Origin: Bacteroidota bacterium | Lineage (GTDB): Bacteria > Bacteroidota > Bacteroidia > Palsa-948 | Assembly (NCBI GenBank): GCA_003164895.1 | Contig: PLUL01000071.1 | Span: 6,679-70,678 of the forward strand | Length of the DNA: 64,000 bases | Direction: 5' to 3' | In this document: positions 62,536 through 64,000 of the stretch, in pieces | Numbering within the stretch: position 1 is the first letter of the stretch | How the letters are laid out: the number at the start of each line of letters is the position of its first letter | Notes under the pieces: generated by a model | Told to the model about the DNA's origin: nothing | Databases searched by the model: none | The model's input: the letters and a program-made list of their open reading frames with translations, nothing else | Position numbers and translations under genes: made by a program

Positions 62536-62611
62536 TGACCCATGGTGTAATTGGCAACACGACTGATTTTGGTTCAGTAGAGTCTAGGTTCGAGCCCTAG
62601 TGGGTCAACCA
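62536..62611 (+). tRNA. tRNA-Gln (anticodon UUG)
   Basis: Cloverleaf folded by hand. Acceptor TGACCCA / TGGGTCA (U1-A72, typical of bacterial tRNA-Gln). D-stem GTGT / ACAC with loop AATTGGCA. Anticodon stem ACTGA / TCAGT with loop TTTTGGT, giving anticodon TTG with U33 and G37. 5-nt variable loop. T-arm CTAGG-TTCGAGC-CCTAG. Discriminator A plus an encoded CCA. 76 nt. Confidence 0.85.
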
Positions 62612-64000
62612 AATAGGGGATGATGGTTTTTTAACCTCATCCCCTTTTTTATTTTTACCCTCCGCCTCCGCCAATTTCTTGTATTTAGCTATGAGAGAAT
62701 AAGGCGCAACTAAATTCATCTGGATTTTTTTATCCCTTAAAATTAGGTTCGAGCCGATTTTTTCGAGCAAAGATTTTTCACAGCAAAAATCTTTTGAAAA
62801 AGCGAGTGTTCCTGCAAGCTGTGCTGATTCTATCCAGTTTTTCATAGGTTCGAGCCGACTATTGCTCTTTTGCCCAAAGTCATCTTTTTGCTGTGAAAGA
62901 TTTGTTTTCAGCTTAATAAGTTCCTCTTTCTTTTTCAGATATATATCTTTTTCAATCGTCTCTTCAAGGAAAGCATTCACGAGTTTGTCTAATCTTTCTT
63001 CCGTGTCTTTAATTTTATTTTCAATGCTTTGGGCAAAAGAGATCAAGTTTTTTTGTTCTTCTCTTTCCAATTCTTCCACGTGGGCAAGCATCTCGTGTGC
63101 CCATCCATCCGGCAGGGCAACCGTTTTCAGCACGTCCCTTAATTGATTTTGCATTCGGTCTTCACGCAAATATCCTTGTGAACACTTACACTTTTTCTTT
63201 GTACATCGGTAGTAGCGGTAAGTGCCTCCATGCCCTTTTGCAAACTGAGCAGTTATGGAACAACCGCACTCACCGCACGTGAAGATTCCTGTTAATGCAA
63301 AATCATGTTTACTTTTTATTACTCTTGGTCTGGAACGAAGTTTAAATAATTTTTGGACGGCTTCAAAGGTTGCCCTGTCCACGATTGGTTCATATTTTCC
63401 CTCGAAAGATTCACCTTTGTATTTTATTATTCCTGTGTATAGCCAATTAGTAAATATCCAATGCATATGTGACAGACTTAATAAATTACCTGACTTACTT
63501 GCAATGCCAAAAAAACTCAGGCGTTGTCTTGCACTATCAAGAGAATGTTTTCCTTCGGCAAATTCTTTGAAAAGTTTTTTTATGACTTTTGATTTAACCG
63601 GATCGGGGTCTATGTTTCGTGTTTTAGGATTATTCAAATATCCGACTGGCGCTTTTCCAATCCACTCACCACGCCTGAGTTTTTGACGAACGCCCCGCTT
63701 TACATTCTCTGATAAATTGTCCGAGTAATATTTGCTTTGTCCAAAGGCAACTTGCAACATGAACAACCCCTGCGGTGTTGGTTCAAACCAAAAAGTAGAA
63801 AACTTTAGTCCGCAAATCTTTTTAAGGTCAATGAGGTAAATAATTTGCCCTCCGTCTATGGAATTGCGCGCGAGCCTGTCAGGATGCCAAGCTAATATAC
63901 TGACAGGCTCTTTGCTTGCATATATCTTCTCTATCATGCGGGCAAATTCTTTACGGCCCGGAATTTTTGCGCTTTTGCTTTCTATAAAAGTTTCTGCTAT
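62597..64000 (-). CDS. large serine recombinase (resolvase/invertase-type catalytic domain, recombinase domain, zinc-ribbon); N-terminus beyond the window end
   Basis: In-frame translation continues past the ORF-track Met to the window edge: ...IPGRKEFARMIEKIYASKEPVSILAWHPDRLARN is the serine-recombinase catalytic-domain motif. Downstream, a Cys cluster (FTCGECGCSITAQ...YRYYRCTKKKC) forms the zinc ribbon, followed by a C-terminal coiled coil. The 3' end, including the stop, overlaps the terminator and 3' end of tRNA-Gln. Confidence 0.85.
   Translation of the reverse strand: MAETFIESKSAKIPGRKEFARMIEKIYASKEPVSILAWHPDRLARNSIDGGQIIYLIDLKKICGLKFSTFWFEPTPQGLFMLQVAFGQSKYYSDNLSENVKRGVRQKLRRGEWIGKAPVGYLNNPKTRNIDPDPVKSKVIKKLFKEFAEGKHSLDSARQRLSFFGIASKSGNLLSLSHMHWIFTNWLYTGIIKYKGESFEGKYEPIVDRATFEAVQKLFKLRSRPRVIKSKHDFALTGIFTCGECGCSITAQFAKGHGGTYRYYRCTKKKCKCSQGYLREDRMQNQLRDVLKTVALPDGWAHEMLAHVEELEREEQKNLISFAQSIENKIKDTEERLDKLVNAFLEETIEKDIYLKKKEELIKLKTNLSQQKDDFGQKSNSRLEPMKNWIESAQLAGTLAFSKDFCCEKSLLEKIGSNLILRDKKIQMNLVAPYSLIAKYKKLAEAEGKNKKGDEVKKPSSPIWLTH
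62597..64000. mobile_element. left end of an integrated genetic element (serine-recombinase-mediated) inserted at the 3' end of tRNA-Gln; the rest lies outside the window
   Basis: The recombinase gene abuts and overlaps the tRNA 3' end, which is the classic tRNA-targeted island junction. Everything to the left is conserved housekeeping/core-like sequence. Confidence 0.5.
62615..62656 (+). terminator. Rho-independent terminator downstream of tRNA-Gln
   Basis: 9-bp stem AGGGGATGA / TCATCCCCT with a 13-nt loop, followed by TTTTTTATTTTT. Confidence 0.6.

What the first reader, a model, noticed from the sequence alone, without database searches (positions are those of the whole stretch)
62536..64000. 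tRNA-Gln(UUG) 3' end overlapped by a large serine recombinase gene: junction of an integrated element
The tRNA, folded by hand into a good cloverleaf, ends at 62611. The convergently oriented recombinase ORF reads through the tRNA terminator and into the last 15 nt of the tRNA before hitting a stop. This is the arrangement expected where an integrative element has recombined within the tRNA 3' end and regenerated it (att site). The recombinase is of the large serine type, unlike the tyrosine integrases most often seen at tRNAs. Its N-terminus and the rest of the element lie to the right of the window. Everything to the left looks like core genome.
Basis: partly seen in the sequence, partly recalled or inferred. 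Interest (0 to 1): 0.6.

Follow-up and report, generated by a model that had tools for sequence, protein, structure and literature searches.

The report
Serine-integrase element junction at tRNA-Gln
The right end of the window is one edge of a mobile DNA element that a large serine integrase inserted into the last 7 bases of a tRNA-Gln gene, and its whole enzyme family, found across several bacterial phyla, keeps an unexplained extra upside-down copy of its own attachment site next to the integrase gene.

Summary
tRNA-Gln(UUG) lies at 62536-62611. A convergent large serine recombinase (LSR) ORF stops at 62597, 15 nt inside the tRNA, and runs off the window at residue 41 of 507.

In eight sibling metagenome contigs, sequence identity breaks exactly after TCAACCA (62605-62611), which are the last 7 nt of the tRNA. 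Beyond the recombinase the content is variable or mobile: a MobA/MobB relaxase operon, metal-resistance genes, or decayed remnants. To the left, the genes are syntenic core.

Relatives at 37-85% identity sit at at least 12 different tRNA genes. One splits a GH53 gene with base-pair precision in a HiFi genome. Two complete 5-6 kb elements have the native tRNA terminator and a 5-nt core at their far end.

One feature was unexpected. In 15 of 15 evaluable loci, the recombinase gene is bracketed by long inverted repeats. The upstream arm forms an intact, inverted copy of the attP-type junction, 146 nt and 100% identical in this strain. The roughly 80 nt next to the crossover stay near-identical even where the rest has drifted. 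Both orientation isomers occur. I found no description of this layout, and its function is unknown. The far end of this particular element was not recovered.

The parts
62536..62611 (+). tRNA-Gln(UUG) gene. The first 69 nt are chromosomal. The last 7 nt are supplied by the element.
   Evidence: ARAGORN. The identity breakpoint falls at 62604/62605.
62605..62611 (.). Common core O (TCAACCA; TGGTTGA on the recombinase strand). This is where the element and tRNA sequences are joined, so the crossover lies in or next to it.
   Evidence: The junction panel covers 8 contigs plus the window, 11 junction instances in all. The outer edge of the perfect inverted repeat lies here.
62605..62750 (.). Arm U, 146 nt. 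It is the element-side (P-type) arm of the attR-type junction and also the last ~48 codons of the recombinase gene. A 100% identical inverted copy, U', lies about 1.77 kb further right, outside the window.
   Evidence: In L014 the arms are 130-275 and 2042-2187, 100% complementary. L014 130-275 matches window 62605-62750 at 100%.
62614..62656 (+). Element-supplied intrinsic terminator for the tRNA: a hairpin followed by TTTTTTATTTTT. The recombinase ORF reads through it on the other strand.
   Evidence: The fold is -20.4 kcal/mol with z = -4.95.
62597..64000 (-). Large serine recombinase gene, residues 41-507 plus the stop codon. The start codon is expected about 120 nt beyond the window end.
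63662..63994 (-). Catalytic (Resolvase) domain from profile position 36 onward. The catalytic Ser is outside the window.
   Evidence: Pfam PF00239, E = 1e-10. S12, R10, D81, R82 and R85 are invariant in alignment A1.
63341..63601 (-). Recombinase domain (PF07508).
63140..63295 (-). Zinc beta-ribbon domain (PF13408). Its four Cys are invariant in the family.
62744..62755 (+). Second copy of the 12-mer TAGGTTCGAGCC, which is also the tRNA T-arm at 62585-62596. The inner edge of arm U falls inside this copy.
   Evidence: Three copies in the window against 0 expected. U edge.
62845..62856 (+). Third copy of the same 12-mer, in a different reading frame of the recombinase gene.
   Evidence: The frames were read (SRLEPM versus IGSNLI).

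Best explanation
Bases 62605-64000 are the right-hand (attR-type) end of an integrated mobilizable element. Its integrase is a large serine recombinase.

The element recombined with the chromosome inside the acceptor-stem 3' strand of tRNA-Gln. It replaces the last 7 nt of the tRNA (TCAACCA) and supplies a new terminator, so the tRNA stays intact. The integrase gene has no stop codon of its own. It reads across the attachment site and stops in whatever DNA it is joined to, which here is the tRNA.

Shown:
- the enzyme class;
- the exact breakpoint;
- mobile or variable content on the element side and core synteny on the other;
- precise, complete insertions of relatives at other tRNAs and in a gene.

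Inferred:
- integration occurs by attP x attB double-strand exchange, as in characterised serine integrases;
- this copy can still move.

In sibling contigs of the same strain, the element also carries an intact inverted copy of the attP-type junction (flank X' + core + U'). It lies about 400 nt upstream of the integrase start. The excised circle would therefore hold two inverted attP regions separating an integrase segment from a cargo segment. Both orientation isomers are found in nature. My preferred reading is that this second site is bound by the integrase and is kept by selection, but what it is for is not established.
For: **Enzyme.** The ORF has Resolvase, Recombinase and Zn_ribbon_recom domains. 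The best PDB relatives are the SPbeta SprA and A118 serine integrases.

**Breakpoint.** Eight contigs share the recombinase 3' end up to TGGTTGA and then diverge into either the tRNA or flank X.

**Element side.**
- MobB-family relaxase, NF041495, E = 1e-51, with a Mob operon in L024.
- Metal-resistance genes in L019.
- A decayed 325-nt remnant plus an excisionase-like gene in L015.
- A second, diverged recombinase stacked on a 270-nt remnant in L016.

**Core side.** The TMEM260-like, deacetylase, M16 peptidase and rhomboid genes are syntenic in L014-L018.

**Relatives.**
- Convergent tRNAs lie at the recombinase 3' end for Pro, Trp, Ser (three genes), Asp, Gly, Ala and Leu.
- The ORF reads 12-163 nt into the tRNA in 8 of 10 such loci.
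- In L023, from a HiFi genome, a 9.2-kb insertion splits a GH53 gene. The reconstructed attB restores the ORF.
- L010 and L004 have the native tRNA-Ser terminator plus the core TGCGG at the far end.

**Inverted attP copy.**
- It is present in 15 of 15 evaluable loci.
- The outer ~80 nt are 95-100% identical even where the inner parts are only 50-75% identical.
- In L007, one whole circle's worth of sequence lies between direct U repeats.

**Isomers.**
- L029 has tRNA-Met joined to U' on the spacer side.
- L001 is probably the same arrangement.
- L021 and L019 differ only in what follows the core.
- P0132 is a full-length protein with the alternative C-terminal tail.
Against: - The far (attL-type) end of this element was never seen. 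Every short-read contig breaks at or just beyond U', and the single metagenome scan gave only one hit.
- No empty tRNA-Gln site was found. All related strains carry the recombinase or a remnant of it. The element could therefore be an old, vertically inherited and now immobile resident.
- There is no G+C shift across the junction.
- The part that makes the enzyme catalytically competent, and the inverted attP copy itself, lie outside the window. They are known only from sibling contigs (L014, L017, L020).
- No recombination directionality factor was identified.
Confidence: 0.8

Rival explanations
1. A resident DNA-inversion switch. On this reading the recombinase is an invertase sitting inside its own invertible segment, as Hin does, flanked by inverted recombination sites. 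The tRNA is only a neighbour.
For: - A perfect 146-nt inverted repeat brackets the gene.
- The two sites have the polarity that gives inversion rather than excision (sequence read).
- Both orientations exist.
- Some sources name relatives 'DNA invertase Pin-like'.
Against: - The protein has the integrase-type architecture, with recombinase domain and zinc ribbon at 507 aa, not the ~190-aa invertase architecture.
- Relatives are precise insertions with two chromosomal junctions and unrelated cargo.
- They occupy at least 12 different tRNAs in several phyla.
- The repeat's outer edge coincides with the tRNA breakpoint.

Inversion may well occur, but as a property of an integrative element.
Confidence: 0.07
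2. A minimal IS-like transposon of about 2.06 kb. It would consist only of the recombinase gene between 146-bp terminal inverted repeats and would target tRNA 3' ends.
For: - The U'-spacer-gene-U unit is 2058 bp.
- Very many family members sit on contigs of 1.7-2.3 kb.
- In L029, core genes and a tRNA reach right up to U'.
Against: - Serine recombinases cannot excise a segment bounded by inverted sites.
- The ~2-kb contigs are what a de Bruijn assembler yields at any inverted repeat longer than k (inference).
- In L023, L004, L010, L007 and L012, U' is contiguous with Y', whose partner Y lies at the far end of 1.7-6.7 kb of cargo. The whole unit, not the 2-kb part, precisely interrupts the target.
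- The 2-8 nt overlap of the Y' and U' repeats is what an attP-type junction predicts.
Confidence: 0.03
3. A fossil junction. The element integrated in an ancestor of this lineage and is now fixed and immobile. On this reading the recombinase ORF is intact here only by chance, or it has been co-opted.
For: - The recombinase or a remnant lies at tRNA-Gln in every related contig, including a second species.
- Independent decay is seen: a 5' deletion, a 325-nt remnant, an in-frame stop, a group II intron insertion, and frameshifts in L010 and L029.
- There is no compositional shift across the junction.
Against: - The ORF in the window strain is intact over all 507 codons, with all family-invariant residues.
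- The two 146-nt arms are 100% identical in L014. In L017, where only 70 nt of the upstream arm is on the contig, they are also 100% identical and carry strain-specific variants.
- The content beyond the gene differs between strains.
- The junctions U|tRNA and U|X both occur with near-identical recombinase sequence.
Confidence: 0.25

Closest known systems
Tn4451/Tn4453 family (TnpX large serine recombinase plus TnpZ Mob) of Clostridia
   Same: Both are small integrative mobilizable elements. Their only recombination enzyme is a large serine recombinase, and they carry their own relaxase and oriT but no transfer apparatus (PMC5704250; MobB next to the site).
   Different: TnpX has low target specificity, with a GA dinucleotide core. 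Neither tRNA regeneration nor an internal inverted copy of the joint is described for Tn4451 in that review. My belief that neither has been reported elsewhere rests on my own knowledge, not on a tool result. Tn4451 itself was not compared here; no relative in the phage or plasmid collections exceeds about 31% identity.
Phage and prophage serine integrases (phiC31, Bxb1, A118, SPbeta SprA)
   Same: The domain order is the same: catalytic domain, recombinase domain and zinc ribbon. The inferred coiled-coil insert was not tested. The cores are short, 2-8 nt. The insertions are precise.
   Different: This clade is essentially absent from 2.9 million viral contigs, with 1 hit. It mostly targets tRNA 3' ends and restores them, whereas the serine-recombinase IMEs reviewed in PMC5704250 disrupt the protein-coding gene they target. 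That characterised phage serine integrases also target protein-coding genes is from my own knowledge. Its ORF crosses the attachment site. It keeps a second, inverted attP. The PDB matches are distant, E about 1e-12.
Tyrosine-integrase islands and IMEs at tRNA genes (NBU1, P4-like islands, tycheposons)
   Same: The target logic is the same: the element inserts in the tRNA 3' end, the tRNA end is regenerated from element DNA, and the integrase gene lies at the tRNA-proximal edge. Tycheposons include a small minority with a large serine recombinase, 27 of 937.
   Different: The recombinase superfamily and chemistry differ. The shared core is only 5-7 nt, whereas tyrosine systems typically have longer direct repeats (this comparison figure is from my own knowledge). 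The elements also carry the inverted attP copy.
Hin/Gin invertible segments and the yeast 2-micron circle
   Same: The recombinase gene is bracketed by inverted recombination sites. The predicted circle has two unique segments separated by two long inverted repeats, and both isomers exist.
   Different: Those systems do not integrate. Hin and Gin are small serine invertases with an enhancer. Flp is a tyrosine recombinase, and its flipping serves copy-number amplification. No replication function is known for the present element.
CcrB, CcrA, CcrC and XisF (NCBIfam equivalogs)
   Same: These are the best-scoring curated large-serine-recombinase models.
   Different: The scores are 30-73 bits against cut-offs of 375-900, so the protein is not a member of any of them.

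Membership tests
Large serine recombinase (serine integrase) | N-terminal serine-recombinase catalytic domain with the catalytic Ser and the DRLxR motif | tested here: met
   PF00239, E = 1e-10, in the window from profile position 36. The catalytic S12 lies outside the window but is present in the identical full-length P0001. R10, S12, D81, R82 and R85 are invariant in 14 family members.
Large serine recombinase (serine integrase) | Recombinase domain followed by a zinc beta-ribbon | tested here: met
   PF07508, E = 1.3e-12, and PF13408, E = 1e-8. Four Cys are invariant.
Large serine recombinase (serine integrase) | Coiled-coil motif inserted in the zinc-ribbon domain | not tested
   A ~100-residue charged, heptad-like stretch follows the ribbon and aligns with that region of SprA. 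No structure prediction was run.
Large serine recombinase (serine integrase) | Short att sites, a 2-bp crossover, and precise conservative insertion | tested here: met
   This was tested in relatives only. In L023, attL, attR and the reconstructed attB restore the GH53 reading frame. L010 has a 5-nt core and L004 an 8-nt core. For the window element only one junction is known.
Large serine recombinase (serine integrase) | Catalysis of attP x attB integration | not testable with these tools
   This needs an in vitro or in vivo assay.
Integrative mobilizable element (IME) | Own integrase, plus own relaxase or oriT, without a conjugation apparatus | tested here: inconclusive
   The integrase is present. 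A MobB-family relaxase (176 bits, cut-off 200, E = 1e-51) and an upstream Mob gene lie next to flank X in sibling contigs L020 and L024. The full gene content of this element is unknown.
Integrative mobilizable element (IME) | Flanked by attL and attR sharing a short direct repeat | tested here: inconclusive
   attR is seen. attL was not recovered for this element. It is present in relatives L004, L010 and L023.
Hin/Gin-type DNA invertase | Protein of about 190 aa with a catalytic domain and a C-terminal helix-turn-helix | tested here: not met
   The protein is 507 aa, with recombinase and zinc-ribbon domains.
Hin/Gin-type DNA invertase | Inverted sites flanking an invertible segment | tested here: met
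CcrB / XisF equivalogs | Score above the NCBIfam curated cut-off | tested here: not met
   72.7 bits against cut-offs of 900 and 375.

The most novel reading that the evidence does not exclude
The intact inverted attP copy kept beside the integrase gene may be a working third recombination site of a previously undescribed, phylum-spanning class of serine-integrase elements. On this reading it makes the excised form a 2-micron-like two-isomer circle that can integrate through either site. Once integrated, the third site either drives inversion of the integrase and cargo segments or acts in cis as a DNA-encoded directionality control. Such control could allow excision without a separate directionality protein. 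It might work together with the state-dependent C-terminal tail of the integrase, whose ORF ends in whatever DNA the site is joined to.
Probability: 0.35. Interest if true: 0.75.

Novelty: new variant of a known kind. Interest (0 to 1): 0.6.

Why it matters
Serine integrases are prized genome-engineering tools because they need only two short sites and are strictly directional. How natural elements without an obvious directionality factor get back out is still poorly understood.

This clade is large: more than 120 clusters at 56% identity or above, and about 7,800 homologues scored. It spans Bacteroidota, Patescibacteria, Verrucomicrobiota and other phyla. It combines three unusual features:
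- It targets tRNA 3' ends and restores them, a habit typical of tyrosine integrases.
- The integrase ORF crosses the crossover point.
- It keeps a conserved third site, an intact inverted attP.

If the third site is functional, it would be a new design principle for controlling serine-integrase reactions. It would also provide a ready set of tRNA-specific integrases with defined att sites.

On the practical side, the inverted repeats explain why these elements systematically break short-read assemblies about 0.5 kb upstream of the integrase gene.

Tried and rejected
**Getting the source contig beyond base 64000.**
- The look-up of P0001 found no record.
- The 71.7-kb contig was collapsed with L014.

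**Finding every context of the U outer end.** The single metagenome scan gave one hit, L024, a 44-nt U remnant joined to X and the Mob genes. It showed no far end and no empty site.

**Phage origin.** No close relative was found in IMG/VR. A profile-based scan gave one hit. Nothing in the phage or plasmid collections exceeded about 31% identity.

**The T-arm 12-mer as the crossover.** I considered that the copies inside the gene mark the crossover and explain the breakpoints. I rejected this as a general rule for three reasons:
- No such copies occur in relatives at other tRNAs.
- The family motifs LEP and GSN partly explain them.
- The breakpoint in P0121, P0127 and P0131 turned out to be a group II intron insertion.

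**Rfam on the flank and spacer.** This gave only spurious miRNA-like hits, caused by a long hairpin.

**A folded single-stranded attP, as in CTX phage.** I considered that the inverted arms might form such a site after conjugative entry. I rejected it by reasoning: a serine recombinase exchanges both strands, which would leave the chromosome linear with looped ends.

**The small ORF in U' (P0123, 54 aa) as a regulator.** It is not conserved in relatives.

**The IS-like and pure-invertase readings.** See the rival explanations.
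Full report
**Observation.**
ARAGORN finds a single tRNA in the 64-kb window, tRNA-Gln(UUG) at 62536-62611 on the + strand. On the minus strand an ORF ends with TAG at 62597-62599. It stays open to the last base of the window, giving 467 codons.

The ORF reads through a strong hairpin at 62614-62644. On the tRNA strand this hairpin is followed by TTTTTTATTTTT. It folds at -20.4 kcal/mol with z = -4.95.

Pfam finds Resolvase (from profile position 36), Recombinase and Zn_ribbon_recom. 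The nearest solved structures are the SPbeta SprA and A118 serine integrases, at E about 1e-12 to 1e-7. NCBIfam's CcrB and XisF models score far below their cut-offs. The protein is thus a large serine recombinase (LSR) of an uncharacterised clade.

The complete protein, P0001, is 507 aa and identical to the window from residue 41. The catalytic Ser12 lies about 100 nt beyond the window.

**Sibling contigs define the junction.**
The neighbouring 1088-aa TMEM260-like protein occurs, with identical sequence, on six metagenome contigs. Further contigs came from the recombinase's 90% cluster and from one DNA scan.

On the tRNA's left, the genes are the same everywhere: TMEM260-like, polysaccharide deacetylase, two M16 peptidases and a rhomboid. 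This holds even in a second species, L018.

On the recombinase side the content varies:
- L014 and L017 carry the full gene.
- L015 carries a 325-nt 3' remnant, then an excisionase-family HTH gene, tRNA-Glu and dnaE.
- L016 carries a second, diverged recombinase stacked on a 270-nt remnant.
- L019 carries a 5'-deleted gene preceded by at least 10 kb of metal-homeostasis genes.
- L025 carries a group II intron inside the gene.

A panel of all junctions shows that the recombinase 3' end is identical up to TGGTTGA. TGGTTGA is the reverse complement of TCAACCA, the last 7 nt of the tRNA. After it the sequence continues in one of two ways:
- into the tRNA (window, L014-L019);
- into an unrelated flank X that leads to a MobB-family relaxase (NF041495, E = 1e-51) and a further Mob gene (L014 minus strand, L020, L021, L024).

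L021 and L019 are 96.6% identical over 2379 nt up to exactly that heptamer. This is a site-specific recombination breakpoint. The element supplies the last 7 nt of the tRNA and its terminator.

**The unexpected repeat.**
In L014, which is the same strain as the window (its arm U and TMEM260-like protein are identical to the window's, and its recombinase is 100% identical to P0001), the recombinase gene is bracketed by a perfect 146-nt inverted repeat. The arms are L014 130-275 and 2042-2187. The right arm equals window 62605-62750.

The upstream arm U' is joined on its outer side to flank X'. X'-core-U' is therefore an inverted copy of the U-core-X junction seen in L021.

Three independent assemblies, L014, L017 and L020, show this. 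L017's arms are identical to each other while differing from L014's.

**Family-wide architecture.**
A scan of one genome per species found relatives at 37-62% identity in Bacteroidota, several Patescibacteria lineages, Verrucomicrobiota, Tepidisphaerales and a gammaproteobacterial MAG. The protein database holds more than 120 clusters at 56% identity or above, and about 7,800 homologues.

In ten loci a convergent tRNA abuts the recombinase 3' end: Gln, Pro, Trp, Ser-gct, Ser-tga, Ser-gga, Asp, Gly, Ala and Leu-cag. In eight of these the ORF runs 12-163 nt into or through the tRNA.

In all 15 loci with enough sequence on both sides, the gene is flanked by an inverted repeat of 62-367 nt. The right arm is the gene's 3' end and reaches 4-10 nt into the tRNA.

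Where the arms have diverged overall to 81-85% identity, the ~80 nt next to the crossover are still 95-100% identical. This argues for selection on, or continual correction of, that part.

**Complete elements in relatives.**
- **L023** comes from a HiFi assembly of a 4.4-Mb genome. A 9.2-kb insertion splits a GH53 glycosidase gene. The junctions read attL ..tacacGG-GC-attattgaacg.., attR ..cttggtGG-GC-cgtatcgtg.., and internal inverted copy ..cttggtGG-TC-attattgaacg... Joining the outer halves restores the GH53 reading frame.
  - The layout is attL(B|Y), then cargo, then [Y'U'], then spacer, then recombinase, then attR(U|B').
  - Y/Y' is 339 nt at 99.4% identity. U'/U is 161 nt at 84% identity.
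  - The cargo is a methyltransferase, an SNF2 helicase and a NOV_C protein.
- **L010 and L004** are 5.3-6.0-kb elements in two different tRNA-Ser genes. The two share about 90% identical Y, Y'U', spacer and recombinase, but their cargo is unrelated.
- **L007** has exactly one circle's worth of sequence (U-X-cargo-X'-U'-spacer-gene) followed by a second direct U. This is as expected if a circle carrying both attP copies integrated at a solitary U remnant.

**Both isomers exist.**
If the circle has two inverted attP regions, or if the segments flip after integration, a second arrangement is predicted: tRNA, then U', then spacer, then recombinase.

L029 shows this arrangement. Its recombinase is 85% identical to the window's. 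The order is core genes, tRNA-Met(CAU), U' (100% identical to the gene's 3' end over the 91 nt available), spacer, then recombinase. L001, with tRNA-Leu(UAA) 296 nt upstream on the same strand, is probably the same.

Within the window's own cluster, the full-length protein P0132 ends ..PIWLSLWSESRTLI, a homologue of the X-flank-encoded tail ..PIWLSLLSEARNLV, where the window's protein ends ..PIWLTH. Its gene therefore runs into flank X rather than the tRNA.

**Mechanism.**
Shown:
- the enzyme class;
- the exact breakpoint;
- regeneration of the tRNA end and terminator from element DNA;
- mobile or variable content beyond the gene;
- precise two-ended insertions in relatives;
- a conserved inverted attP copy;
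- two isomers.

Inferred from the established chemistry of serine integrases:
- integration is by attP x attB double-strand exchange at a dinucleotide in or next to the core;
- the excised form is a circle with two inverted attP regions, topologically like the yeast 2-micron plasmid;
- the integrase's C-terminal tail differs between states, because the ORF has no stop of its own.

The role of the extra site is not established. Four candidates remain:
- segment inversion;
- cis-acting control of excision;
- an autoregulatory operator, since it sits 190-400 nt upstream of the start codon;
- insulation, since U' carries the bidirectional terminator hairpin.

**Rivals.**
- A pure invertase reading fails on protein architecture and on the precise two-ended insertions.
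- An IS-like 2-kb transposon fails for two reasons. Serine recombinases cannot excise between inverted sites. Also, U' is contiguous with Y', whose partner lies beyond the cargo.
- The abundance of ~2-kb contigs, and contigs ending about 0.5 kb upstream of the gene, are what inverted repeats do to short-read assembly.
- A fossil, no-longer-mobile copy cannot be excluded for this genome. Every related strain has the gene or a remnant at this tRNA, and no empty site was found. The ORF here is nevertheless intact.

**Comparison and novelty.**
Serine-recombinase mobilizable elements are known, notably Tn4451. The 2017 review of IMEs states that those with specific serine recombinases disrupt the genes they target, whereas insertion at tRNA 3' ends is the habit of tyrosine integrases (PMC5704250). 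A few tRNA-associated elements with an LSR are recorded among tycheposons.

Five full-text searches found no description of an integrated serine-integrase element carrying an intact inverted attP, or of an integrase gene bracketed by such repeats.

I therefore rate the window finding itself as a new member of a known kind. I rate the family architecture as a new variant of a known kind.

**Limits.**
The inverted copy, the N-terminus and the cargo are outside the window and known only from sibling contigs. The far end of this element and an empty site were not found. L020 combines a Gln-type U' with a Met-type gene end and may be a chimeric assembly. No experiment was possible.

Noticed in passing
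window 62585-62596, 62744-62755, 62845-62856: The 12-mer TAGGTTCGAGCC, which is the tRNA-Gln T-arm, occurs three times within 272 nt, against 0 expected in 64 kb. The two copies inside the recombinase gene are in different reading frames (IGSNLI and SRLEPM). The inner edge of the 146-nt repeat falls inside the second copy. The conserved family motifs GSN and LEP explain the copies only partly. Relatives at other tRNAs lack such copies.
   Followed up: partly
L025 1188-2510 (minus strand), insertion point near L025 985: A group II intron (RVT_1 plus GIIM reverse transcriptase/maturase) has inserted in the recombinase gene of some strains (P0121, P0127, P0131). The insertion point is 10 nt before the third 12-mer copy.
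   Followed up: partly
L016 2-1294 and 1264-1539: A second, diverged recombinase gene (about 77% nucleotide identity to its relative in L029) ends directly on a 270-nt remnant of the window-type gene. The remnant starts 7 nt before the third 12-mer copy. This looks like a later element that used the resident gene's tRNA-like motif as a pseudo-target.
   Followed up: partly
L014 313-448 (also L017, L020; palindromes in the spacers of L022, L028, L005 and L002): A ~55-bp imperfect hairpin lies between U' and the recombinase start codon. It folds at -48.7 kcal/mol with z = -7.0. It gives only spurious miRNA-like Rfam hits. It could be an operator, an oriT or a single-strand initiation signal.
   Followed up: partly
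L015 5284-6305: In one strain the whole region between tRNA-Glu and tRNA-Gln is only 1.3 kb. It holds an excisionase-family HTH_17 gene, a 125-aa ORF with no family match, and the recombinase remnant. dnaE follows directly, so the native locus is probably dnaE, tRNA-Glu, then tRNA-Gln.
   Followed up: no
L004 6420-9285 versus L010 5766-9280; L023 2653-9319: Two elements with ~90% identical integrase modules and inverted repeats carry completely unrelated cargo, which suggests cassette exchange between the Y/Y' arms. L010's cargo includes a frameshifted gene with a DGQHR motif (IIDGQHRLYSF, read by eye; possibly DndB-like, not tested). L023's cargo is a methyltransferase, an SNF2 helicase and a NOV_C protein, which looks defence-like.
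   Followed up: no
L020 3022-3146 versus L029 9390-9514: The recombinase in L020 has a 3' end of the tRNA-Met type, like L029, while its upstream inverted copy is of the tRNA-Gln type. This is either a natural hybrid with two different attP specificities or a chimeric metagenome assembly.
   Followed up: no
L018 6677-7301: In the second species, a HepT/MNT-type toxin-antitoxin pair sits between the two M16 peptidase genes. These genes are adjacent in the window strain.
   Followed up: no
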